64,000 bases of DNA from an uncultured Candidatus Saccharibacteria bacterium. Its GTDB lineage: Bacteria; Patescibacteriota; Minisyncoccia; SW-4-49-11. The position numbers and the translations under genes were made by a program. The stretch covers positions 1,006 through 65,005 of the forward strand of contig CAZPCB010000002.1 in NCBI GenBank assembly GCA_964585065.1, in the 5' to 3' direction. Of the stretch, positions 50,991 to 62,509 are shown in pieces; positions within the stretch are counted from its first letter, which is position 1, and the number at the start of each line of letters is the position of its first letter. The notes below the pieces were generated by a model. The model did not search any database. It was given only the letters and a program-made list of their open reading frames with translations, and was not told where the DNA came from.

Positions 50991-51347
50991 ATGAGTGAAG
51001 AAAAGAAGACCTCTAAAAAAGTAACCATAGTCCCAACTGATAGACAAAAAAATATTGCCGCTATTAGCTATATATTCTTTATTATTGGATATTTTACCGT
51101 AGAAAAAGACTCTCCTTTTGTGAAATTTCATATGAAACAATCTCTCACTTTATTAATTTTTGCTGCTGCTATTAGTTTTACTCTAAGTATTTTTGGGATT
51201 ATACCTATATTAGGTTGGTTAATTGCTTTTTTGGGTGGTATTCTTTCTCTTATTTTATTTGTTATTGGAATTATTAATGCCTTATCTGGAGAAGAAAAAG
51301 AGCTTCCTCTTATTGGTAAATATACTGAAAATTTATTCAGTTTTTAA
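50991..51347 (+). CDS. small multi-TM membrane protein (DUF4870-like)
   Basis: 118 aa; FVKFHMKQSL motif and 3 TMs. Confidence 0.4.
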   Translation: MSEEKKTSKKVTIVPTDRQKNIAAISYIFFIIGYFTVEKDSPFVKFHMKQSLTLLIFAAAISFTLSIFGIIPILGWLIAFLGGILSLILFVIGIINALSGEEKELPLIGKYTENLFSF

Positions 51348-52867
51348 GCTACTTTTTCGCGATATTGTAAGGCTTCTGCAATATGAGTTATTTGAATATT
51401 CTCTGAATGAGCGATATCCGCAATGGTGCGGGATAATTTGAGAATTCTATTATAGGCTCTGGCGGATAAATTCATTTTCGTGACAGCTTGGGTTAGAAGA
51501 TGTTGTGAGGCTTTATCTAATATACAAATTTCTTGAATTTGTTTTATATTCATTTCACTATTGGTTTTAATTCCCATATGTTGAAATCGTTCTTTTTGTA
51601 TTGCACGAGCTTTTTCTACTCTATTACGAATTGACTCTGATGATTCTTCTAATACTTCTGAAGGCTTAATTAATTCTTCAGTTTTGACTTTTTCTACCTG
51701 AATAATCATATCTATTCTGTCGAGTAATGGCCCGGATATTTTTTGCTGATAGCGTACAATTTGAGCTTGAGAACAAATACATTCTCTATCATTATCAGTA
51801 AGATAGCCACAAGGGCAAGGATTTTGGCTAGCAATAAGCATAAAGTCAGCAGGAAAGGTTAGAGATCCCTGTGCTCTGGATATTGTCACTATTCTATCTT
51901 CTAATGGTTGCCGTAAACTTTCTAATACTAATCGAGGAAACTCCGGAAATTCATCCATATAGAGCACTCCGCGATGAGCGAGACTAATTTCACCTGGTTT
52001 AGGAAAACTCCCGCCTCCGATTAAAGAAATGGACGATGCGGTATGATGTGGTGCTCGAAAGGGTCTACTAATTATGAGTGGGTTATCTGAACTCAGATTT
52101 CCTGCAATACTATATAATTGAGAAACTTCTAATACTTCTTCCCTATCCATTATCGGTAATATGGTGGGTATGGTTCGAGATAATAATGTTTTACCAGCCC
52201 CTGGAGGTCCTGTCATTAATATATTATGCGCTCCCGCGGCTGCGATTTCTAAAGCTCTTTTGGCGAGCTTTTGTCCTCGTATATAAGACATATCTATATC
52301 AGATATATGAGGTTTGGGTATAAAATGATAGGGAGGAGTAGCTTGAATTTGTGTATGTACTTTATTATCAAAATGATCAATTAATTCCTGTATATGACTA
52401 ATGGCTAAAATGGTTATGCCCTCTACAAGAGAAGCTTCTTTGGCATTATCTGCTGGTATAATAATAAAGGGTATATGTTGTTGTTTGGCATATATTGCAA
52501 TTGGTAATATACCTTGTACACCTCGTATTGATCCATCTAATCCCATTTCTCCAAGAATAATATATTCTTTTTCTGGAAATTGAATAAGTTCTAAAGCTTT
52601 TAAGATAGCTACCGCCATTGGTAAATCATAGGCTGTTCCAATTTTCTTTACTTCAGCTGGAGCTAAATTAAGTACAAATCGTTTTTGGGGTAAAACAATG
52701 CCACTATTTTTAAGCCCTAAGCGCATACGCTCTTTAGCTTCATTGATAGCAGTATCGGGTAATCCAACTATTGTAATACCTGGTAATCCCTGAGTCATAT
52801 CAACTTCAATCTCTATTCTTTGCCCATTTAGTCCTAGAGTTGCTGCTGATTGTACTCGGGATAACAT
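51344..52867 (-). CDS. comM: Mg-chelatase-like AAA+ protein YifB/ComM
   Basis: 507 aa; N-terminal ChlI-like subdomain, Walker A GPPGAGKT, C-terminal domain. Confidence 0.85.
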   Translation of the reverse strand: MLSRVQSAATLGLNGQRIEIEVDMTQGLPGITIVGLPDTAINEAKERMRLGLKNSGIVLPQKRFVLNLAPAEVKKIGTAYDLPMAVAILKALELIQFPEKEYIILGEMGLDGSIRGVQGILPIAIYAKQQHIPFIIIPADNAKEASLVEGITILAISHIQELIDHFDNKVHTQIQATPPYHFIPKPHISDIDMSYIRGQKLAKRALEIAAAGAHNILMTGPPGAGKTLLSRTIPTILPIMDREEVLEVSQLYSIAGNLSSDNPLIISRPFRAPHHTASSISLIGGGSFPKPGEISLAHRGVLYMDEFPEFPRLVLESLRQPLEDRIVTISRAQGSLTFPADFMLIASQNPCPCGYLTDNDRECICSQAQIVRYQQKISGPLLDRIDMIIQVEKVKTEELIKPSEVLEESSESIRNRVEKARAIQKERFQHMGIKTNSEMNIKQIQEICILDKASQHLLTQAVTKMNLSARAYNRILKLSRTIADIAHSENIQITHIAEALQYREKVA

Positions 52868-52871
52868 ATAT

Positions 52872-53981
52872 TTAATCTCGAATTGGCATTATAAGATAAA
52901 AGAAATCTGGAATATCAGGACTTTTGAGAATAACAGGAGAATCCGTATCATTAAGGTTGAATTGTATTGGCTTATCTTGGAATAATTGTATACCGTCCAA
53001 AAGATAATTATAATTAAAGGCTACAGCCAAATTAATTTCACCCGTACTATGTATAGGTAATTTAGTGGTATTAGCTCCAACTTGAGAATCTGAAGAACTA
53101 ATGCTCAAAGTACTATCATCTTGAATAGTTAATTTGACATCATGAACCGTATTCTGAGAGAATACTGAAGCTAATTTTATAGCCTGTACTAATTCCTGAC
53201 TATCTATATCAAATAATGTATTGAATTTTTGAGGAATAAGTCCTTCATATTGAGGAAAATTCCCTTCAATTAATTTTGATACTATTTCTACCGTATCAGC
53301 AATAATATGTATTTGAGAAGCTCCAAATTGTAATGTCACTTCTACTTCTTCTAGGGCGTCCAATACTCGAATAATTTCTGCTACTGTTTTACTTGGAATA
53401 ATAAGAGAAAAATTTTCTTCAGCAGGACTTGATAAAGTAATTCTCTTTTCACTAAGTCGAAATCCATCAGTTCCAACAAAAATTAATTGCTGATCTTTTT
53501 TTGCAATATATACTCCGGAAATTTCTGGGCGAAAATCATTTTTAGGTAAAGCACCATATACTGTCTTGAGAGCTTGCTTCAATTCTATACTTCCTACCAC
53601 TAATTGCTTATTTGCTTCTATTTGGGGAAGTTGTGGGAATTCATCTGCAATAATACCTTTGAATTCAGCAGTAATATCTTTTCCTTGTTCTATAGTAAGT
53701 TTATCATCTACAACCGTTAAATCTAATTTATCTTGTGGTAAATTTCGAATATAGGCAAGTAAAGTATCTTGAGGAATACAAATAGCCCCTTCAGCTTCTT
53801 CTTTTCCTCTAATATGTACCCGTATTCCAATTTCTAAATTGGTGGAGCTAATTGTGAGTGATCCTTTATCTCCTTGTAATAAAAAGGTTTGTAAAACTGG
53901 TAATGTTGTAGCTCGTGAAGAACTTTGCCGAGCTATACTCAGTCCCTTTAAAAGATTTTCTTGCAAACAGGTGAATTTCAT
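52872..53981 (-). CDS. dnaN: DNA polymerase III beta sliding clamp
   Basis: 369 aa, three-domain architecture, N-terminal MKF.C....L; immediately downstream of dnaA. Confidence 0.85.
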   Translation of the reverse strand: MKFTCLQENLLKGLSIARQSSSRATTLPVLQTFLLQGDKGSLTISSTNLEIGIRVHIRGKEEAEGAICIPQDTLLAYIRNLPQDKLDLTVVDDKLTIEQGKDITAEFKGIIADEFPQLPQIEANKQLVVGSIELKQALKTVYGALPKNDFRPEISGVYIAKKDQQLIFVGTDGFRLSEKRITLSSPAEENFSLIIPSKTVAEIIRVLDALEEVEVTLQFGASQIHIIADTVEIVSKLIEGNFPQYEGLIPQKFNTLFDIDSQELVQAIKLASVFSQNTVHDVKLTIQDDSTLSISSSDSQVGANTTKLPIHSTGEINLAVAFNYNYLLDGIQLFQDKPIQFNLNDTDSPVILKSPDIPDFFYLIMPIRD

Positions 53982-54331
53982 ATCTTCTCTATCTTACTCT
54001 ATTTCTATATATGTATTATACCTTGAATAATTCCTTTTTTCTAGTTTATTTGTTTTCTTGTCCTTTATTTATATAAAGTATAATAGTAGATAGTAGTATG
54101 TGTGGAAAAGCTGAAAACTGGTTTTTGACCGCATAAATACTGTGTGTCAAGTGGGGATATCATTTGGGATAAGTCTCTTATAACTTTGGGGATAAAACAG
54201 AGTGGGAAAAATCTCTGTGGATTAAGTCCTATTTATACACAATAGTATTCACAGAAATCTAGTGATTTTATATAAGTTATACACAACTTATTAACAATAG
54301 TTAAGGAATTACAAAGGAGGTTTTTTCTGTA
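53982..54331. promoter_or_regulatory. AT-rich dnaA-dnaN intergenic region with a cluster of DnaA-box-like 9-mers (each one mismatch from TTATCCACA/TGTGGATAA): candidate oriC segment
   Basis: tgtggaaaa (54099), tggggataa (54186), tgtggatta (54217), ttatacaca (54233 and 54267). Confidence 0.5.
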
Positions 54332-55774
54332 TTATGAAGATGCGGGATTTTCCTCATTATATAATTTATTTTTTAATAACGTAATATCTTGCTCAAGACT
54401 GTAATTGGTTACAATATCCTTTTTTACCTTATTCCAAGCATGCATAACTGTGCTATGATCTTTACCCCCTAATAATTCTCCAATATTAGGAAAAGTAAGC
54501 TTTAATTCTTCTCGAATTAAGTACATCGCAATTTGCCTTGGTATTGCGATATCTTTTTTACGGCTTTTAGACAATAAATCTTCTTTGGTAATATGAAAAT
54601 GTTCAGCCACGGTATCGAGAATCATATCAGTGTTCACAATACGTTGAGAATGAATTTGTCCCCCTTCAATTAACTTATCTACTAATTCAGGAGTAACTTT
54701 GGCTCCTAGAAGTTGTACTCGTCCAATAATTTTATTTAGAGCCCCCTCTAATTCACGCACATTGCTTCGTATGCGCTCAGCAATGACATAAATAATATCA
54801 TCATCAAGATGAAAATTCTTTTGAATACATTTACTTTTAAGAATAGCTACACGAGTTTCAAATTCTGGAATAGCTACATCCACAATCATACCTCCTTCAA
54901 ATCGAGACTTTAATCTATCATTTAAAGTCTTTATAGCACTTGGTGGTCTATCACTTGTGAATACAATTTGCTTATTATGAGCATAAAGTTCATTAAAGGT
55001 ATTAAAAACCTCATATTGAGTAGCCTCTTTACCCCCAATAAATTGAATATCGTCAATAATCAAGAGATCAACAGCTCTATGCCGAGCTTTAAAATCTTCC
55101 ATACGTCCATTTTTGAGAGAATTCATTAAATCTGAGATGAATACATCTGAGGTAACATACAGGATATTCTTATTCTTTTTATTGAGACTATTCGCAATAG
55201 CTTGAATAAGATGAGTTTTCCCTAATCCCACACCTCCATAAATAAATAAGGGATTATAACGAGTTCCAGGCTCATTTGCAACTGATTGAGCAGCAGCATG
55301 GGCAAGTTCATTGGATGATCCCACAATAAAATTTTCAAAAGTATAATTCTCTTTTAAGAGAGCAGTTCCACTGGGCTTAGCAGGGATAATAGTAGGCTCA
55401 GCATATTGATAATTGGGATCCGTATTCTCATTATTCTGCTTTTCCTCTATTTTAGACTTTTTCTCCTTTAATTCTTTATCTTTGAGGTTAATAACAGATT
55501 GAATAGCTTTAGGAGATTGTTTTTGGGTATTTTGAACTACATATTTTACCCGTTTTATAGAACCGGTAATCTTTTGAATGGAGTTTAGAATAGTAACATT
55601 AAATTTATTCTCAAGCCAATCCCGTGTAAAGGCGCTTGGTACGCAAATTACAATTTCTTTATCATCCATACTTATGGGATAAGTATTTTTGATCCACGTA
55701 TTAAACTGAGGTTTACTGATATTGAGTTCTATCTCACCTAATACTGAGTTCCAAACTCTTTGTTTCTCGTCCAT
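54332..55774 (-). CDS. dnaA: chromosomal replication initiator DnaA
   Basis: 480 aa; AAA+ GGVGLGKTHL; C-terminal DNA-binding domain. Confidence 0.95.
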   Translation of the reverse strand: MDEKQRVWNSVLGEIELNISKPQFNTWIKNTYPISMDDKEIVICVPSAFTRDWLENKFNVTILNSIQKITGSIKRVKYVVQNTQKQSPKAIQSVINLKDKELKEKKSKIEEKQNNENTDPNYQYAEPTIIPAKPSGTALLKENYTFENFIVGSSNELAHAAAQSVANEPGTRYNPLFIYGGVGLGKTHLIQAIANSLNKKNKNILYVTSDVFISDLMNSLKNGRMEDFKARHRAVDLLIIDDIQFIGGKEATQYEVFNTFNELYAHNKQIVFTSDRPPSAIKTLNDRLKSRFEGGMIVDVAIPEFETRVAILKSKCIQKNFHLDDDIIYVIAERIRSNVRELEGALNKIIGRVQLLGAKVTPELVDKLIEGGQIHSQRIVNTDMILDTVAEHFHITKEDLLSKSRKKDIAIPRQIAMYLIREELKLTFPNIGELLGGKDHSTVMHAWNKVKKDIVTNYSLEQDITLLKNKLYNEENPASS

Positions 55775-55997
55775 TGCAATCGTCTAAATTGATGATGTTG
55801 ATAATCTGTGGATAAGTTGATTTTATTATACGCTATTGCAGGATTTTTGCAAAGATATCCCCATTAAAGATTGAGTATAAGCTATAATTCACTTTGAATT
55901 CACTTTCAAAAATAACCCTCCCTCAACAATACGGTATTATATCTTGACTTTCTCTTAATAATAAGCTATAATATGCAACAAGTCTATCGTTATATAT
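55775..55997. promoter_or_regulatory. dnaA/rpmH divergent region: one perfect DnaA box and a consensus sigma70 promoter for rpmH
   Basis: TGTGGATAA at 55807-55815; TTGACT at 55944-55949, 17-bp spacer, TATAAT at 55967-55972. Confidence 0.55.
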
Positions 55998-56132
55998 ATG
56001 ATCAAAGGAGCAGCAAGTAAGAATCGTAAAAGAAATCGCCGACATGGTTTTTTGTCTCGTATGGCAACAAAGTCGGGACGAGCTTTAATTAATCGACGCC
56101 GAGCAAGAGGACGAGCAAAATTATCCGTCTAA
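55998..56132 (+). CDS. rpmH: 50S ribosomal protein L34
   Basis: 44 aa, [44 protein letters not shown]; below the ORF-track cutoff, found by eye. Confidence 0.85.
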
Positions 56133-56154
56133 TTTACTTTATATAAAAAACACA

Positions 56155-56475
56155 ATGGAGCGGCTGCATGAATCATCAGATATAGCCTCTATATTTGCTG
56201 AGATTAAGCCTCAATATCTTGATATATTTCAGATATATACTCGCCCGAGTGACAAAGATATTACTCGATTGGGTATTATTATTTCAAAAAAACATATACC
56301 ACTTGCTGTCAACCGCAATAGATTCAAAAGACAAGTCCGAGAATTATTTCGCAAGCAAATTGATACAAAAACTAGACATTATGATATACTTGTACTAGTG
56401 CGCAATCGTCCAAAACAAGAGAACAAAACTCAAGTATTTGAGCAATTAACTCAATATATTAATACCTTAATCTAA
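56155..56475 (+). CDS. rnpA: ribonuclease P protein component
   Basis: RLGIIISKKHIPLAVNRNRFKRQVRELFR (RnpA RNR motif); classic rpmH-rnpA-yidC synteny. Confidence 0.8.
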   Translation: MERLHESSDIASIFAEIKPQYLDIFQIYTRPSDKDITRLGIIISKKHIPLAVNRNRFKRQVRELFRKQIDTKTRHYDILVLVRNRPKQENKTQVFEQLTQYINTLI

Positions 56476-56484
56476 ACAATCTGT

Positions 56485-57243
56485 ATGGGATGGCTATTCA
56501 ATGAATTATTATATCGACCATTATTCAACTCAATGGTATTCTTCTATGATATTATACCAGGAGCTAATCTTGGTTTAGCAATTATACTTACCACCCTTAT
56601 TGTGCGAGTATTAATGATACCTTTGTATAGGGCTAGTATAAAAAGTCAGCGAGAAATTACTATTATACAACCTATAATTAAGGAAATACAGACTAAGTAT
56701 AAAGATGATAAGCAAAAGCTTTCTGAGGAGTTAATGAAAGCCTATAAAGAGCATAATGTTAATCCATTTGCGGGAATAGTATTATTATTAGTACAACTCC
56801 CTATACTTATTGCTATTTATCAGGTATCTCTCAATTTATTCAAGCCTGAAACCTATCCTGCGCTTTATTCTTTTGTAACTTTGCCAGAGAATGGGTTTAA
56901 CAATATGTCATTCTTTTCTTTAAATATAGCTGAGCCAAACAATATTATACTCGCCTTACTAGTTGGAATTTCACAGTATTATCAGATTCGACTTATTATG
57001 AAGAGAACTCAACCAAAAAAAGTTGAAGATAAGAAAAAGAAAAAATCAGATAAGCCAGAAGCACCAGATTTTGCAACTATTCTCAATAAACAAATGTTAT
57101 TCTTAATGCCAATACTAGTCACAGTATTTGCTTATACATTACCAGCATCTATGAGTTTGTATTGGATTACTACAACCGTATTCACTATAGTACAAGAGTT
57201 TTTCCTTATCAGACAAGTTGATAAAGCAGAGGGGGTAAAATAA
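56485..57243 (+). CDS. yidC: membrane protein insertase YidC (short Oxa1-like form)
   Basis: 252 aa, 5 TM, basic C-terminal tail; follows rnpA. Confidence 0.8.
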   Translation: MGWLFNELLYRPLFNSMVFFYDIIPGANLGLAIILTTLIVRVLMIPLYRASIKSQREITIIQPIIKEIQTKYKDDKQKLSEELMKAYKEHNVNPFAGIVLLLVQLPILIAIYQVSLNLFKPETYPALYSFVTLPENGFNNMSFFSLNIAEPNNIILALLVGISQYYQIRLIMKRTQPKKVEDKKKKKSDKPEAPDFATILNKQMLFLMPILVTVFAYTLPASMSLYWITTTVFTIVQEFFLIRQVDKAEGVK

Positions 57244-58683: not shown

Positions 58684-59452
58684 AACCATATCATTCATTA
58701 TAGTCTCATATAAGACGAAACATTATCTAGAAGATTGTATCAAAGCTATTATCTCATCTACCACAGGAGATTATGAGATAATAGTAGTCGAGAATAATTC
58801 AAGAGAGAATTTAGATAGCCTCCAAGACTTATCCACAGAAAGAATACATATTGTGTATTCAGATAAAAATGCTGGATTTGGAGCCGGAGTAAATATAGGA
58901 GCCACTAAAGCTACAGGTTACTGGCTATGCTTTATTAATCCCGACACCAGAATACAAGGAGATATCCACACTTTATCCACAATGAGTGAAAATACGGGGA
59001 TAATTGGACTGGCTCTTGTGGATAACAATAATCATATACAAGATTATCAGTATGGAGCTTTCCCCACACCACAAAGTATAATCACCAATACTGCTAAAAA
59101 GACTTGGCAAATGCCCACAGATCAGACGATTTCTACCGATTGGGTAAGTGGAGGGTCACTATGTATAGAGACTGCTTTATTCCGCGAACTTGGAGGTTTT
59201 GATGAGCAATTCTTTATGTATTATGAAGATATAGATTTATGCCAGCGAGCTAAACAAATAGACAGAGACATAGAATGGACACAACAAATAACTGTCTGGC
59301 ATCAAGAAGGTGGATCTGAGAGTAATATCAAGAGAACCAAGGAGAGATATTATACTGCCCAGAGAAAATATATCGCAAAATGGTATAGTGATTATTGGAA
59401 TCTCCTCCTAATGCCAATACATTTGGGATTATTAATCAGAGGAAAGTTTTAA
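58661..59452 (+). CDS. family 2 glycosyltransferase
   Basis: FIIVSYKT..YEIIVVENNS, DxD region (YYEDIDL); overlaps the flippase gene by 23 nt. Confidence 0.75.
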   Translation: MPSIFKNKTISFIIVSYKTKHYLEDCIKAIISSTTGDYEIIVVENNSRENLDSLQDLSTERIHIVYSDKNAGFGAGVNIGATKATGYWLCFINPDTRIQGDIHTLSTMSENTGIIGLALVDNNNHIQDYQYGAFPTPQSIITNTAKKTWQMPTDQTISTDWVSGGSLCIETALFRELGGFDEQFFMYYEDIDLCQRAKQIDRDIEWTQQITVWHQEGGSESNIKRTKERYYTAQRKYIAKWYSDYWNLLLMPIHLGLLIRGKF

Positions 59453-59510
59453 AACTTAGATTTTAAAGGTATAATATAGCAAGTAGTCGTAATAATGTAT
59501 AAATCTGGGT

Positions 59511-60377
59511 ATGAATTTAGAAGATAATGTAAATAAACATAATAATTATGTCATTAACCCCCTAACTAATGAGGAGTTAAATGGTTTTTTAGATGATAAA
59601 TCAAGAGATATTATTAAATATTTTATTGTTAAGTCATTATTTTCTCAGCCTGAACCAAAATTAGATCAAAATCAAATCCCCATACAGATACCTAAAGAAC
59701 ATGTTGAACAATGGTTTACACAAGCTCTCAATGTTCACTCTGTTGGTGCTGGTTCATACCCTATTGATATATATAACTTGGAACAAAAATGGGGTGCAGA
59801 TATTAAGATGTTAAATATTAAAGTAGATAAATTTGGAAATATTACAAATAGTAGTAGTGGTGAAGCTTCTCTAGGTCAAAAATTTACAGGACCAGGCATT
59901 GATCTAGATACTTGGTTTGCTCAAAAAGAATATAAAAAAATTAAAGATAGTTGGGTTAATCTATACAATGAGAAATATAACTCAATTAAAGATAAATATG
60001 AAATTAATAAAATCTATTACTTTTTTATACTAAGACCAGGTACTCAGGTAGAGGGGGCAGATTTCTATTTTACAGGAGCTATTATTGATTTAGATAATCT
60101 TCATAAGATTGAAGTTAATAAGAAAAAAACAACGAGTAAATCTGTATTTCTAAATCATTTTATCGATAATGATTATGGGAACATAAAGATTTATAAAGCA
60201 AAGAAAAGACTTGAGCTGAGACTAAATCCAAAGAAATGGATAGAAAATGGATTTTCTCTTAAAATATCTACTTCATTTCAAAATAAACCTATTAATCTAA
60301 GAGACGACTATACAGATAGTTATCTAGATGATCGTATAGATCAATTAAAAAATGTCACTATTAACTTTATAGAATAA
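59511..60377 (+). CDS. hypothetical protein; candidate partner (restriction endonuclease?) of the convergent LexA-methyltransferase
   Basis: 288-aa ORF ending 6 bp from the methyltransferase stop codon; no recognisable motif, so the assignment is positional only. Confidence 0.25.
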   Translation: MNLEDNVNKHNNYVINPLTNEELNGFLDDKSRDIIKYFIVKSLFSQPEPKLDQNQIPIQIPKEHVEQWFTQALNVHSVGAGSYPIDIYNLEQKWGADIKMLNIKVDKFGNITNSSSGEASLGQKFTGPGIDLDTWFAQKEYKKIKDSWVNLYNEKYNSIKDKYEINKIYYFFILRPGTQVEGADFYFTGAIIDLDNLHKIEVNKKKTTSKSVFLNHFIDNDYGNIKIYKAKKRLELRLNPKKWIENGFSLKISTSFQNKPINLRDDYTDSYLDDRIDQLKNVTINFIE

Positions 60378-60383
60378 CTAAAT

Positions 60384-61952
60384 CTATTTCATTGCTTTCA
60401 TCATTTGTTTAGCAACAGCTTCAATAACGGGTACACTAACTGAATTCCCCGCTTGTTTATATAATGCAGAATCTGAAATATTTGGCAAAACATAATTCTT
60501 AGGAAATCCTTGAATTCTAAAGCACTCCAAAGGGGTTAACTTTCTAATACCTTTAGAATCCTTAATTATAGGTACATTATGTCCACCCATACCCATATTT
60601 GCAGTTAGTGTTGGACAAACCCCACTTTTATTTTCTCTAACATATTGTCTACGCCACTGGTAAACCTTTCCTTCTTCAACTACAAAATCTTTAAGTCTCT
60701 CAAATAGAGGTTTATTATTGTAATAATATTTTTCAGGAACATCTTTTTCCAGAAGATTAATAATATTTGTGGTTAGCTTTACTGGAGTAGGAAATTCAAA
60801 CTTATCAAAATAATATTTATTTTTAAAGCCTACAATATAAATCCGCTCTCTATTTTGTGGAATATTCCCATACTCCATGGTATTTAGAACCTTAGACCTT
60901 ACATAATAACCTAGTGATCTAAGAGTTTCCTCAATTACTTTGAATGTATTTCCCCCATCATGACTTTTTAGATTTTTAACATTTTCAAGCATAAATCCTT
61001 CTGGTTTTCTAGCTTCAATAATTTTTGCTATATCAAAAAATAAGTTACCTCTATTTTTGGGATCATCAAAACCTTTTCTATAGCCAGCAATTGAAAATGC
61101 CTGACAAGGAAATCCCCCTAAAATAAAGTCAAATTTGGGTAAATCATCTATTCCAACCTTTCGAATATCTTCTACAACAAGTTTAGATTTTTTAAAGTTT
61201 ACATCATAGGTATCTTTACATTTCGCATCAAAATCATTTGCAAATACCGTTTCAAATCCAGCATTTTCAAAACCAAGACGAATCCCCCCTACTCCAGCAA
61301 AAAGATCAATAGTCCTAAATCTAGGTATATTTTTTTGAATTTCTGGATGTATAGATTGATTAACAATATTGCTAATTACTTGAACTACAACACCTCTCAC
61401 CTCAACTTCTTTTCTATAAAATGGTAAAAGGTTTTGATTTCTAGGCTCAAGTCTAAACCTATCTTTTTCCCGATAGATTTTTTTTAGTGTGGCTTCATTA
61501 TCATCTATGATAGCAACCACAGTCTGCCCATTTTCTGCAACAGACTGCTTTTTAATAATAACAATATCACCATCAAAAATACCCTCATCAACCATACTAT
61601 CACCAGCTACTTTTAAAGCATAATAACCTTCAGAGGATCTAATACTAGGATTTACAATTGAAACCGTATTATCAATATTTTCTATTGCTTCGATAGGGCT
61701 TCCTGCAGCGATAATCCCAATAATAGGTATCTCTAGTATAGATTTTACATTTATTTGTGGAGACAAGGTTCTTGCTGAGTTTGAGAGATAACCTTTTAAT
61801 TTTAAGGTATTAATATGCTCATGAACTGTCGATACAGCCTTAAGATTTAAGTGTTTACGAATCTCTTCTATGGTAGGAGCTACACCAACCTCATTGATAT
61901 ATGAAGTTATGAAATCAAATACCTCTTTTTGTTTTTTTGTTAGTGTTGACAT
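60384..61952 (-). CDS. fusion protein: complete LexA-like repressor (wHTH + S24 autopeptidase) fused to a C5-cytosine DNA methyltransferase
   Basis: Residues 1-~195 carry LexA features: an N-terminal HTH, an AAG cleavage site (GIIAAGSP), Ser (GDSM) and Lys (ATLKK). Residues ~205-522 carry methyltransferase motifs I DLFAGVGG, IV GGFPCQAFS, VI ENV, VIII QNRERIYIVG, X GNSV. It is a single stop-free frame with an ATG start. Confidence 0.75.
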   Translation of the reverse strand: MSTLTKKQKEVFDFITSYINEVGVAPTIEEIRKHLNLKAVSTVHEHINTLKLKGYLSNSARTLSPQINVKSILEIPIIGIIAAGSPIEAIENIDNTVSIVNPSIRSSEGYYALKVAGDSMVDEGIFDGDIVIIKKQSVAENGQTVVAIIDDNEATLKKIYREKDRFRLEPRNQNLLPFYRKEVEVRGVVVQVISNIVNQSIHPEIQKNIPRFRTIDLFAGVGGIRLGFENAGFETVFANDFDAKCKDTYDVNFKKSKLVVEDIRKVGIDDLPKFDFILGGFPCQAFSIAGYRKGFDDPKNRGNLFFDIAKIIEARKPEGFMLENVKNLKSHDGGNTFKVIEETLRSLGYYVRSKVLNTMEYGNIPQNRERIYIVGFKNKYYFDKFEFPTPVKLTTNIINLLEKDVPEKYYYNNKPLFERLKDFVVEEGKVYQWRRQYVRENKSGVCPTLTANMGMGGHNVPIIKDSKGIRKLTPLECFRIQGFPKNYVLPNISDSALYKQAGNSVSVPVIEAVAKQMMKAMK

Positions 61953-62033
61953 ATTGACAATATTATTTATTTTCGCTACAATTATATTATATCCGAAAAA
62001 TAACCGAAATGTAAAGCTTAGTTATCCACAATT

Positions 62034-62222
62034 ATGGACAGAGATAAAAAAATTAAATATTGGATAGATAGATTAATAATAAAAAATGCTGGAGTGCATT
62101 TATTTATATTCATTACGATATGTGCAATTCCATTAGCAGGATTTGAGATATTATTGAATGGTTATTATCAATTAGCATTTGTATCAACTGTAATTATAGA
62201 AGCATTAAATCCGACAAAATAG
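62034..62222 (+). CDS. possible small membrane protein
   Basis: 62-aa ORF with one hydrophobic segment. Confidence 0.25.
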   Translation: MDRDKKIKYWIDRLIIKNAGVHLFIFITICAIPLAGFEILLNGYYQLAFVSTVIIEALNPTK

Positions 62223-62266
62223 AGTAGTTAATAAGGCCTAATCAATAGAAGAGACAATCGAGTAGT

Positions 62267-62509
62267 ATGACAAAAGATGAGGTGATACGTAAATTAAAGA
62301 ATAAAATAGCTGAACTTCAATTAGAGCCCGATACATTGATTGAAAGCACAACTGATAATACCGATATATTATCTTTGGTAGATAAATATAATCTTATGGT
62401 ACATATGATGAATAAAGCTGTTGATACTCAATTGGAATATATCCCTTATGAGCCTACTATACAGGAAATAGATGATATAATAGCTAGAAATAATACTCTG
62501 AGTAATTAG
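62267..62509 (+). CDS. hypothetical small protein
   Basis: 80-aa ORF. Confidence 0.35.
   Translation: MTKDEVIRKLKNKIAELQLEPDTLIESTTDNTDILSLVDKYNLMVHMMNKAVDTQLEYIPYEPTIQEIDDIIARNNTLSN

What the first reader, a model, noticed from the sequence alone, without database searches (positions are those of the whole stretch)
59511..61952. Candidate SOS-linked restriction-modification pair: unassigned 288-aa ORF convergent with, and 6 bp from, the LexA-methyltransferase
Type II R-M genes are commonly convergent and tightly spaced, and restriction endonucleases typically lack recognisable sequence families. The 288-aa ORF has no detectable motif, and the tail-to-tail spacing is 6 bp. If it is a nuclease, a LexA domain on the methyltransferase would couple restriction control to the SOS response. 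Nothing in this window identifies a separate lexA, which raises the question of whether this fusion is the only LexA.
Basis: inference. Interest (0 to 1): 0.5.

Follow-up and report, generated by a model that had tools for sequence, protein, structure and literature searches.

The report
LexA repressor fused to restriction-modification methylase
The unassigned 288-aa gene is very probably a new family of restriction endonuclease, and its partner methyltransferase is fused to the DNA-damage (SOS) repressor LexA, an arrangement found in nearly all close relatives of this LexA in Patescibacteria, so self-DNA marking and damage sensing sit on one protein.

Summary
In detail: a 288-aa ORF (59511-60377, +) lies tail-to-tail, 6 bp from a 522-aa LexA_DNA_bind + Peptidase_S24 + C5-methylase fusion (60384-61952, -).

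The 288-aa protein matches no sequence family. Its confident model (pLDDT 90) resembles Type II restriction enzymes, and it carries an invariant E66...P84-x-D86...D97-x-K99 nuclease motif. Homologs sit beside a C5 methylase in 61 of 67 species across many phyla, with LexA on the methylase only in Patescibacteria-type loci.

The fusion is conserved. The LexA cleavage site, catalytic Ser and Lys, and the methylase Cys are invariant in 62 of 62 proteins. A direct-repeat operator (TTTCGG-N6-TTCGG) overlaps its promoter and is absent from the nuclease promoter.

Where the 288-aa gene is missing, the same slot holds other restriction enzymes (Bsp6I-type, NgoFVII-type, PD-(D/E)XK_5 and others), while the methylase recognition domain stays constant.

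Among the 54 distinct close LexA relatives that could be read, 53 are fused to a DNA methylase of one of five families, and the commonest classes have restriction-enzyme partners (MvaI/BcnI for the N6_N4 class).

The R-M pair is well supported. SOS coupling is inferred, not shown. I found no prior description.

The parts
59511..60377 (+). 288-aa candidate Type II restriction endonuclease, the founding example of an unannotated PD-(D/E)xK family. Predicted catalytic residues: E66 (59706-59708), D86 (59766-59768), D97 (59799-59801), K99 (59805-59807), E118 (59862-59864).
59448..59475 (+). Promoter-like site for the nuclease gene (TTTAAA, 16 nt, TATAAT). It contains no LexA operator.
   Evidence: Consensus scan, 10 of 12 matches. 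The operator matrix finds nothing here, and nothing upstream of the nuclease gene in 0 of 32 related loci.
60378..60383 (.). 6-bp spacer between the two convergent stop codons. No terminator is predicted.
   Evidence: Sequence. Zero terminator-like sites in 59300-62300. Near-abutting stops are typical of related loci (median distance 2 bp in 31 loci).
60384..61952 (-). 522-aa LexA-S24-C5 DNA methyltransferase fusion protein.
   Evidence: Pfam and NCBIfam. PDB sequence matches to M.HhaI and to LexA. More than 120 clusters at 75-99% identity over the full length.
60399..61319 (-). C5 cytosine methyltransferase domain (aa 212-518) with motifs I (FAGVGG), IV (PC283Q), VI (ENV), VIII (QNRER) and X (GNSVSV). 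The target-recognition domain is about aa 392-470.
   Evidence: Pfam E 6e-91. Alignment to M.HhaI. Motif conservation in 62 fusions. Recognition domain invariant across nuclease partners.
61383..61727 (-). Peptidase S24 (LexA C-terminal) domain. It holds the self-cleavage site A83-G84 (61701-61706), the nucleophile S119 (61596-61598) and the general base K157 (61482-61484).
   Evidence: Pfam E 4e-27. Residue-by-residue alignment to E. coli LexA. All three features invariant in 62 of 62.
61782..61952 (-). LexA winged-helix DNA-binding domain (aa 1-57).
   Evidence: Pfam LexA_DNA_bind E 1.9e-16. TIGR00498 above its cut-off.
61990..62011 (-). Putative LexA operator, a direct repeat: CATTTCGGTTATTTTTCGGATA. 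It lies in the -35/-10 spacer and overlaps both hexamers.
   Evidence: The motif is present in 84 of 96 unique upstream regions of related lexA genes. This is the only match in the 64-kb window (score 21.7).
61986..62015 (-). Promoter of the fusion gene (TTTACA, 18 nt, TATAAT).
   Evidence: Joint-best promoter-like site in the region, 11 of 12 matches.
62022..62030 (-). DnaA-box-like TGTGGATAA just upstream of the -35 hexamer. It is conserved at lexA promoters of related loci.
   Evidence: Its role was not tested.

Best explanation
The two genes form a Type II restriction-modification pair. The 288-aa protein is the restriction endonuclease, from a previously unannotated PD-(D/E)xK family. The 522-aa protein is both the protective m5C methyltransferase and a LexA-type SOS repressor.

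Shown by computation: the nuclease fold and motif; obligate pairing of this family with C5 methylases across phyla; intact LexA and methylase catalytic residues; and a conserved direct-repeat operator that overlaps the fusion gene's own promoter.

Inferred mechanism: the fusion dimerises through its S24 domain, binds the operator and represses its own synthesis, which holds the methylase level constant, as in HTH-methylases such as M.SsoII. When single-stranded DNA or breaks activate RecA, including breaks made by the cell's own nuclease at under-methylated sites, the protein cuts itself at A83-G84 and the DNA-binding head is lost. The promoter then opens and more methylase is made.

The two genes converge with only 6 bp between their stops and no terminator. 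Stronger methylase transcription should therefore also read antisense through the nuclease gene and lower its expression. The predicted net effect is a damage-triggered shift towards protection, a Type II equivalent of restriction alleviation.

In this lineage LexA is the constant module, and methylase and nuclease modules are exchanged behind it.

For: Pairing: 61 of 67 species loci with a homolog have a C5 methylase within about 2 kb, usually convergent. This includes Campylobacterota, Clostridia, Prochlorococcus and Bacteroidota, where the methylase has no LexA. A Clostridium plasmid has the same layout. One protein, P0268, fuses a C5 methylase to an ORF-A-like domain.

Slot equivalence: in 17 of 18 fusion loci that lack the 288-aa gene, a convergent ORF lies 4-18 bp from the stop. 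These include RE_Bsp6I (E 1.8e-12), an NgoFVII-type enzyme (PADLOC REase_II, 2e-108) and PDDEXK_5. The methylase recognition domain is the same in all partner classes, with identity 0.81 between classes and 0.79 within.

LexA function: TIGR00498 scores above its cut-off. A83-G84, S119 and K157 are invariant in 62 of 62. The operator is found in 84 of 96 related upstream regions, has a single match in the window at the fusion promoter, and is upstream of the fusion in 29 of 40 loci.

Generality: 53 of 54 distinct close LexA relatives are fused to one of five methylase families. The 623-aa N6_N4 class pairs with an MvaI/BcnI enzyme, E 8e-43.

The fusion is not phage-borne: no relatives in 2.9 million viral contigs. 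There are no terminators between the genes.
Against: No experiment or methylome is available. Nuclease activity, methylase specificity, RecA-dependent cleavage and operator binding are all inferred.

No avoidance of a candidate target site is seen in the window: GCNGC ratio 0.86 and GCGC 0.73, no lower than other palindromes.

The operator is absent from the nuclease promoter (0 of 32 loci), so any control of restriction itself is indirect.

The fate of the S24-methylase fragment after cleavage is unknown. If it is degraded, as LexA fragments are in E. coli, the direction of the effect would reverse.

The LexA sample consists of the 80 closest relatives retrieved by peptide patterns, not a census of the phylum. 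Whether this genome has a second lexA outside the window is unknown.
Confidence: 0.7

Rival explanations
1. Damage-triggered suicide (abortive-infection logic). RecA-stimulated self-cleavage marks the S24-methylase fragment for proteolysis. Methylase activity then falls, newly replicated DNA is left unprotected, and the stable nuclease kills the damaged or infected cell.
For: The cleavage site and catalytic dyad are strictly conserved. The residues before the cut (…G-I-I-A-A83) resemble the C-terminal degradation signal exposed on E. coli LexA after cleavage (own knowledge of Neher et al. 2003; sequence). The nuclease promoter is independent of LexA. R-M systems are known to act like toxin-antitoxin modules and to induce SOS when unbalanced (PMC3874152).
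Against: Cleavage also derepresses the fusion's own promoter, which sits under the operator. Synthesis should therefore rise at the same time. A repressor whose every routine SOS induction risks self-restriction seems costly for an organism in which it is probably the only LexA. There are no data on fragment stability.
Confidence: 0.15
2. The LexA module serves only as a dimeric DNA-binding autoregulator of the methylase gene, functionally like the N-terminal HTH of M.SsoII or M.EcoRII. It does not respond to DNA damage, and a separate LexA or no SOS system exists in these cells.
For: Autoregulatory N-terminal DNA-binding domains on C5 methylases are an established mechanism (PMC3874152). The operator is found at the fusion's own promoter, and only 6 further sites were seen in 708 kb of flanking DNA, none at recognisable SOS genes.
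Against: A83-G84, S119 and K157 are invariant in 62 of 62 fusions while the rest of the LexA module is only about 60% identical. That pattern indicates selection on self-cleavage itself. The module scores as a LexA equivalog. Nearly all close LexA relatives are fusions and only one distinct standalone LexA was seen, so no obvious 'other' LexA is in view. The flanks scanned are too short to test for a regulon.
Confidence: 0.1
3. The 288-aa protein is not a restriction enzyme. It is a methylation-associated repair or nicking nuclease (Vsr- or MutH-like) that accompanies C5 methylases.
Against: The gene occupies exactly the convergent slot that recognised restriction enzymes (Bsp6I-type, NgoFVII-type) fill in sister loci, and it is mutually exclusive with them. 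True Vsr genes sit on the other side of the fusion and co-occur with those partners; locus L023 has both Vsr and a 288-aa homolog. At 288 aa, with an extra C-terminal beta-rich domain, it resembles monomeric or dimeric Type II enzymes.
Confidence: 0.05

Closest known systems
Autoregulatory C5 methyltransferases with an N-terminal DNA-binding domain (M.SsoII, M.Ecl18kI, M.EcoRII, M.MspI, M.ScrFIA)
   Same: A Type II m5C methylase carries an N-terminal DNA-binding region. That region binds an operator overlapping the methylase promoter and represses its own gene (PMC3874152). The same architecture and promoter logic are inferred here.
   Different: Here the N-terminal part is a complete LexA: winged helix, S24 self-cleaving protease, and a conserved Ala-Gly site with Ser/Lys dyad. 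Repression should therefore be released by a DNA-damage signal. The genes are convergent rather than divergent around a shared control region, and the nuclease promoter has no operator. The same LexA head is found on five unrelated methylase families.
Canonical LexA SOS repressor (TIGR00498), including lineages with direct-repeat LexA boxes such as Alphaproteobacteria (GTTC-N7-GTTC)
   Same: Domain order, cleavage site, catalytic dyad, autoregulation through a box in its own promoter, and an 11-bp-period direct-repeat box like the alphaproteobacterial one (PMC8565304).
   Different: Canonical LexA is about 200 aa and has no enzymatic cargo. This protein carries a 310-aa DNA methyltransferase after a linker of about 15 residues, and its gene is paired with a restriction endonuclease.
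PD-(D/E)xK Type II restriction endonucleases of known structure (ThaI, MspI, HinP1I, SfiI, EcoRV)
   Different: There is no detectable sequence similarity to any of them or to any Pfam, PADLOC or NCBIfam restriction-enzyme model. All public copies are labelled 'hypothetical protein'.
Restriction alleviation of Type I R-M systems after DNA damage (ClpXP degradation of HsdR in E. coli)
   Same: The proposed outcome is the same: DNA damage shifts the balance from restriction towards protection of unmodified self DNA. This comparison rests on own knowledge and is an analogy only.
   Different: The mechanism is entirely different. It is proteolysis of the nuclease subunit there, and derepression of a LexA-methylase fusion here. 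No such mechanism is known to me for Type II systems.
Bsp6I (GC^NGC) and NgoFVII (GCSGC) R-M systems
   Same: Enzymes of these two Pfam families occupy the nuclease slot next to LexA-methylases whose recognition domain is essentially identical to the one in this window. This suggests a GCNGC-type target.
   Different: The 288-aa protein is unrelated in sequence to either family. The target sequence was not determined, and GCNGC is not depleted in the window (ratio 0.86).

Membership tests
Type II restriction-modification system | DNA methyltransferase with a complete set of catalytic motifs | tested here: met
   Pfam DNA_methylase E 6e-91. Motifs I, IV (PCQ), VI, VIII and X are present; the catalytic Cys is invariant in 62 of 62 and the other motifs are conserved in about 60-62 of 62.
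Type II restriction-modification system | Adjacent gene encodes an endonuclease | tested here: met
Type II restriction-modification system | Nuclease and methylase genes co-occur across unrelated genomes | tested here: met
   61 of 67 species loci. A plasmid copy exists. One methylase-nuclease fusion protein, P0268.
Type II restriction-modification system | Nuclease and methylase recognise the same DNA sequence | not testable with these tools
   This needs a methylome and cleavage mapping. Site-avoidance statistics were uninformative.
PD-(D/E)xK nuclease superfamily | Alpha-beta-beta-beta-alpha-beta core with (E)...(P)D...(D/E)xK on the second and third strands | tested here: met
Any named restriction-enzyme sequence family (Pfam RE_*, PADLOC REase_II, NCBIfam) | Significant profile match | tested here: not met
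   No hit at E<=1 in Pfam, NCBIfam or PADLOC. No PDB sequence or profile hit. It is therefore treated as a new family.
LexA repressor (TIGR00498 equivalog) | Winged-helix DNA-binding domain plus S24 domain scoring above the curated cut-off | tested here: met
   170.9 bits against a cut-off of 110.95. Pfam finds both domains.
LexA repressor (TIGR00498 equivalog) | Ala-Gly cleavage site and Ser/Lys catalytic dyad | tested here: met
   A83-G84, S119 and K157 align with E. coli A84-G85, S119 and K156. They are invariant in 62 of 62 fusions.
LexA repressor (TIGR00498 equivalog) | Operator in its own promoter (autoregulation) | tested here: met
   A conserved direct repeat occurs in 84 of 96 related upstream regions, overlapping the -35/-10 spacer. 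Binding itself was not tested.
LexA repressor (TIGR00498 equivalog) | RecA*-stimulated self-cleavage and control of a DNA-repair regulon | not testable with these tools
   There was no access to whole genomes. Only 6 extra operator sites were found in 708 kb of flanks, none at recognisable SOS genes.
LexA repressor (TIGR00498 equivalog) | Stand-alone protein of about 200 aa | tested here: not met
   The protein is 522 aa with a C-terminal methylase.
SsoII-type autoregulatory C5 methylases | Short N-terminal HTH region, divergent R and M genes and a shared intergenic operator | tested here: not met
   The N-terminal region is LexA plus S24, about 200 aa. The genes are convergent. There is no operator at the nuclease promoter. 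It may work in a similar way but is not a member.
C-protein-controlled R-M systems | Small HTH controller gene next to the nuclease gene | tested here: not met
   The only small neighbouring ORFs (62034-62222 and 62267-62509) have no Pfam hit, and none lies upstream of the nuclease gene.
HhaI-type (GCGC) methylases | Target-recognition loops like those of M.HhaI | tested here: not met
   M.HhaI is the best PDB match overall (210 bits), but the recognition loop differs: GKGGQGERIYS in M.HhaI against YQWRRQYVREN here.
GCNGC/GCSGC-specific systems (Bsp6I, NgoFVII) | Same target sequence | tested here: inconclusive
   This is suggested by partner enzymes in sister loci that have an identical recognition domain. 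No site depletion is seen and no direct data exist.

The most novel reading that the evidence does not exclude
Across a large part of the Patescibacteria (CPR), the cell's only SOS repressor is physically the methyltransferase subunit of a Type II restriction-modification system. LexA is the fixed, vertically inherited head, and methylase and nuclease modules of many unrelated families are swapped in behind it. RecA-triggered self-cleavage then acts as a switch that resets the balance between methylation and restriction whenever the chromosome is damaged, including by self-restriction or phage attack. Immunity, self-marking and the DNA-damage response would form one circuit in organisms that largely lack CRISPR.
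Probability: 0.4. Interest if true: 0.9.

Novelty: new variant of a known kind. Interest (0 to 1): 0.8.

Why it matters
There are three reasons.

1. It gives a function to a conserved "hypothetical protein" family: 428 relatives in the word-indexed search and 185 clusters at 50% identity in the exhaustive one. The family occurs from CPR bacteria to Clostridium, Prochlorococcus and Campylobacterota. If confirmed, it is a new restriction-enzyme family with a defined candidate active site.

2. It exposes a regulatory design not known for Type II R-M systems: the methylase is covalently joined to the self-cleaving SOS repressor. This makes a long-standing question directly testable, namely how Type II systems avoid killing their host when repair or replication leaves sites unmethylated.

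3. It changes how SOS biology should be read in the candidate phyla radiation. Nearly every close LexA relative sampled here is an enzyme fusion. Annotation pipelines label the same protein either "LexA" or "cytosine methyltransferase". Regulon studies that treat it as an ordinary repressor may therefore miss half of its function.

Tried and rejected
- **Sequence-family assignment of the 288-aa ORF.** Pfam, NCBIfam, PADLOC, PDB phmmer and a PDB profile search were all negative.
- **GCGC specificity from the M.HhaI match.** Rejected, because the recognition loops differ.
- **Target-site avoidance.** GCGC ratio 0.73, GCNGC 0.86, GCSGC 1.08. None stands out from general palindrome depletion.
- **My own interim conclusion that most fusions are orphan methylases** (6 of 25 with the 288-aa gene). 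This was wrong. The slot is filled by other restriction enzymes.
- **My interim label "standalone LexA" for 42 loci**. This was also wrong. They are fused to other methylase classes.
- **Phage origin.** No LexA-module relatives were found in viral contigs, and only three weak partial nuclease matches.
- **Conserved wider synteny around the fusion.** None beyond Vsr and the nuclease slot.
- **Defining an SOS regulon from extra operator sites.** Only 6 sites in 708 kb, not at recognisable repair genes.
- **Literature.** Six full-text searches found no description of LexA-methylase fusions. The most relevant paper, Sanchez-Osuna, Barbe and Erill 2017 (Environ Microbiol 19:3465), is not held, so I cannot exclude that it mentions the fusion or the operator.
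- **Phage methylases with a similar recognition domain.** Matches of 52-60% identity exist, but none has a stated specificity.
Full report
**1. The observation**

The window contains a 288-aa ORF at 59511-60377 on the plus strand and a 522-aa ORF at 60384-61952 on the minus strand. Their stop codons face each other across 6 bp.

The 522-aa product contains three domains:
- LexA_DNA_bind, aa 1-57
- Peptidase_S24, aa 76-190
- C5 DNA_methylase, aa 212-518

It passes the curated cut-off of the NCBIfam LexA equivalog TIGR00498, with 170.9 bits against 110.95. The 288-aa product matches nothing in Pfam, NCBIfam, PADLOC or PDB sequences, either as a single sequence or as a profile.

**2. The 288-aa protein is a nuclease of the restriction-enzyme type**

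It has 428 relatives in the public protein collection, all unnamed. An exhaustive HMMER scan finds 185 clusters at 50% identity at E<=0.001 among 1.84 billion representatives.

A 39-sequence alignment has 59 invariant columns. They include E66 and the string P84-x-D86 ... D97-x-K99 ... S116-G-E118.

AlphaFold2 with that alignment gives a confident model, pLDDT 90.4 and pTM 0.87. The motif residues lie where the fold requires them: E66 in helix 62-72, D86 just before strand 87-89, and D97 and K99 within strand 94-103.

**3. Context: the family is a partner of C5 methylases, with or without LexA**

A scan of one genome per species found homologs in 67 species. These span Patescibacteria, Campylobacterota (Sulfurovum, Poseidonibacter, Helicobacter cetorum), Clostridia, Epulopiscium, Prochlorococcus, Bacteroidota, SAR86, Methylophilaceae and Aquificales. 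This patchy distribution is typical of mobile R-M genes.

In 61 of the 67 loci a C5 methylase lies within about 2 kb, mostly convergent and nearly abutting. Four of the six exceptions are cut by contig ends or are fragmentary.

About 34 of the loci carry the LexA module on the methylase; these are the Patescibacteria-type loci, a few of them from bins labelled as other phyla. In the remaining loci the methylase is an ordinary one, 25-66% identical to this one.

Other supporting cases:
- A Clostridium plasmid (pCM028-B) shows the same convergent pair, annotated "hypothetical protein" and "dcm".
- Homologs in cultured Poseidonibacter and Clostridium are also "hypothetical protein" in RefSeq.
- One database protein, P0268, joins a C5 methylase domain to an ORF-A-like domain in a single chain.

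**4. The reverse test, and a correction**

Using the LexA module as the query, I fetched the 80 closest loci from metagenomes. At first only 6 of 25 C5 fusions with enough downstream DNA seemed to have the 288-aa gene, which suggested orphan methylases.

Inspecting the downstream DNA showed otherwise. In 17 of 18 such loci a convergent ORF begins 4-18 bp from the fusion's stop codon. These ORFs fall into at least six unrelated families:
- a Bsp6I-family enzyme (Pfam RE_Bsp6I E 1.8e-12; PADLOC REase_II 3.7e-25)
- a full-length NgoFVII-type enzyme (PADLOC REase_II 2e-108; Pfam RE_NgoFVII_C)
- a PDDEXK_5 nuclease
- a 349-aa protein with a weak REase_II hit
- two unknown families

The 288-aa gene therefore occupies a slot that recognised restriction enzymes fill in sister genomes.

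The methylase target-recognition domain (aa 392-470...VYQWRRQYVRENKxGVCPTLTANMGxGGHNVPIIKD...) is essentially the same whatever the partner. Mean identity is 0.81 between partner classes and 0.79 within them. One methylase specificity is thus served by at least seven unrelated nucleases.

From my own knowledge of those families, Bsp6I cuts GC^NGC and NgoFVII recognises GCSGC, so a GCNGC-type target is a reasonable guess. It is unproven:
- The recognition loops differ from those of M.HhaI, the best PDB match.
- Neither GCGC nor GCNGC is specifically depleted in the window.

**5. The LexA half is intact and autoregulatory**

Aligned with E. coli LexA, the fusion has the Ala-Gly cleavage site (A83-G84), the nucleophile serine (S119) and the general-base lysine (K157).

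In 62 fusion proteins from independent contigs, all three features are invariant. The methylase catalytic cysteine is also invariant, and the other methylase motifs are conserved in about 60-62 of 62. Meanwhile the LexA module as a whole is only about 60% identical between proteins. That pattern points to selection on self-cleavage itself.

Upstream regions of about 100 related lexA genes share a direct repeat, TTTCGG-N6-TTCGG, with variants TTCGA and TTCTA. It lies between or over the -35 and -10 hexamers and is present in 84 of 96 unique regions.

In the window:
- The motif occurs exactly once in 64 kb, at 61990-62011 on the minus strand.
- It lies inside a promoter-like site that ties for the best score in the locus: TTTACA, 18 nt, TATAAT.

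Direct-repeat LexA boxes with an 11-bp period are known from Alphaproteobacteria (PMC8565304).

Across nuclease-bearing loci, the operator lies upstream of the fusion gene in 29 of 40 and upstream of the nuclease gene in 0 of 32. LexA therefore controls the methylase promoter directly, and the nuclease at most indirectly.

No terminator is predicted between or within the two genes. Transcription of each gene should run antisense into the other. Interference of this kind is documented in other R-M systems (PMC3874152).

**6. The wider pattern**

The loci I had first labelled "standalone LexA" are not standalone. Their ORFs run to 467-626 aa. Pfam shows LexA_DNA_bind + Peptidase_S24 joined to several different methylases:
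- an N6_N4 methylase (623-aa class)
- a D12/Dam-class adenine methylase (514 aa)
- a second N6_N4 type (467-478 aa)
- a second C5 methylase lineage (571 aa)

After de-replication at 95% identity, the unbiased sample holds 60 distinct LexA sequences:

| Class | Count |
|---|---|
| C5 fusion | 29 |
| N6_N4 fusion (623-aa class) | 19 |
| Dam-type fusion | 2 |
| Second N6_N4 type fusion | 2 |
| Second C5 lineage fusion | 1 |
| True standalone LexA (225 aa) | 1 |
| Cut by contig ends | 6 |

So 53 of the 54 sequences that can be read are methylase fusions.

Partners of the other classes:
- The 623-aa class has, in 18 loci, a convergent gene 0-3 bp from its stop. It is a full-length MvaI/BcnI-family restriction enzyme (Pfam E 8e-43).
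- The partner of the second C5 lineage hits a PADLOC Type II nuclease model (4.6e-19).

On a neighbour-joining tree of the LexA domain, the methylase classes are interleaved. LexA identity between classes (0.55-0.60) is close to that within the C5 class (0.61). This suggests a continuous LexA backbone behind which methylase and nuclease modules have been exchanged. The tree has no support values, so I treat this as a lead.

The LexA module is absent from 2.9 million viral contigs, searched with the same peptide patterns that found 286 relatives in metagenomes. The fusion is therefore not a phage repressor.

Vsr, the T:G mismatch endonuclease that normally accompanies 5mC methylases, lies divergently 96 bp upstream of the fusion in 10 C5 loci and occurs in 16 loci in all. 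This fits active cytosine methylation there. This window has none.

**7. Mechanism**

*Shown by computation:*
- the pair has the anatomy, conservation and context of a Type II R-M system;
- the methylase is also a complete LexA;
- its promoter carries a conserved LexA-type operator, and the nuclease promoter does not.

*Inferred:*
- The fusion represses itself and so holds methylase at a set level.
- RecA activated by damage, including self-restriction at under-methylated sites, triggers cleavage at A83-G84. This releases repression and raises methylase synthesis.
- Increased convergent transcription lowers nuclease expression.

I put the R-M assignment at about 0.9, functional damage-responsive LexA autoregulation at about 0.75, and the protective direction of the switch at about 0.45.

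The main rival is the opposite direction. If the cleaved S24-methylase fragment is degraded, as LexA fragments are in E. coli (own knowledge), damage would lower protection and turn the pair into a suicide module.

Two lesser rivals are less likely for the reasons given in the rival-explanations section:
- a LexA head used only as an HTH autoregulator;
- a repair rather than a restriction nuclease.

**8. Comparison with known systems, and novelty**

The closest known systems are C5 methylases with N-terminal HTH autoregulatory regions, such as M.SsoII and M.EcoRII (PMC3874152). This system may work in a similar way but is not a member. Its head is a self-cleaving LexA, the genes are convergent, and the same head serves five methylase families.

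The nuclease is a new sequence family within the PD-(D/E)xK superfamily.

Six full-text searches found no description of LexA-methylase fusions. The one paper on the Patescibacterial SOS network is not held, so prior mention cannot be excluded.

I rate the finding a new variant of a known kind, with high interest.

**9. Limits**

- Everything is computational.
- The LexA sample is the 80 closest relatives, not a census.
- The genome beyond this 64-kb window could not be searched for a second lexA.
- The target sequence is unknown.

Noticed in passing
window 62022-62030 (-); also 14458, 31011, 41854, 55807, 58829, 58973, 59017: The DnaA-box 9-mer TGTGGATAA occurs 8 times in 64 kb against 0.76 expected; 0 of 100 shuffles reach 8. 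One copy sits just upstream of the -35 hexamer of the LexA-methylase promoter. The same 10-mer, TGTGGATAAC or its complement, is conserved at that position in most related lexA loci, whichever methylase is fused. Three copies cluster within 200 bp inside the glycosyltransferase coding region, about 500 bp upstream of the nuclease gene. This may indicate DnaA control of lexA or a DnaA-titrating cluster.
   Followed up: partly
window 51344-57243: The R-M/LexA locus lies about 6 kb from the replication-origin gene set: comM-like Mg-chelatase gene (51344-52867, -), dnaN (52872-53981, -), dnaA (54332-55774, -), rnpA (56155-56475, +) and yidC (56485-57243, +).
   Followed up: partly
loci L070, L071, L073-L079, L087, L088, L096, L100, L105, L109, L123, L023: A Vsr mismatch endonuclease gene (PF03852, E 1e-22) lies divergently about 96 bp upstream of many LexA-C5 methylase genes and shares the operator-bearing intergenic region. 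Vsr could therefore be LexA-regulated. No vsr is present in this window.
   Followed up: partly
upstream regions of C5-class fusions, e.g. window 61960-61985 (-): Beyond the operator, the leaders of the C5-class fusion genes share a conserved AATTGTAGC(G/A)CAAA block just after the -10 hexamer, and a GTCAA a few bases before the ATG. The 623-aa class instead often has a second, inverted copy of the operator (TCGAAA-N5-TCGAAAG) after the -10 hexamer. Function unknown.
   Followed up: no
P0268 (751 aa) and P0304 (916 aa): Two long proteins contain an ORF-A-like domain at their C-terminus. P0268 has a C5 methylase domain in front of it. P0304 has about 660 N-terminal residues with no Pfam match.
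   Followed up: partly
L011 and L013 (both from MAG MAS3.bin172, JAJZMH01): One metagenome-assembled genome carries two separate LexA-methylase plus 288-aa-homolog loci. This is either two LexA fusions in one cell or a mixed bin. It bears on the question of whether the fusion is the only LexA.
   Followed up: no
L133 and L146 (467-478-aa LexA-N6_N4 class): These fusions are followed on the same strand by a second N6_N4 methylase gene instead of a convergent nuclease. This resembles two-methylase (Type IIS-like) systems. The nuclease was not located.
   Followed up: no
L094, downstream of the fusion: One 623-aa-class fusion is followed by a co-directional ORF of 788 aa or more with an NPPY motif, reminiscent of a Type IIG/Eco57I-like combined enzyme rather than MvaI/BcnI. 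It was not analysed.
   Followed up: no
window 62034-62222 and 62267-62509 (+): Two small ORFs (62 and 80 aa) lie divergently upstream of the fusion gene. They have no Pfam match and are called as genes in the Logan copy of this locus. Function unknown.
   Followed up: no
annotations: Public pipelines name the same fusion family inconsistently: 'transcriptional repressor LexA' at NCBI and 'DNA (cytosine-5)-methyltransferase 1' at JGI. Each label hides half of the protein.
   Followed up: no
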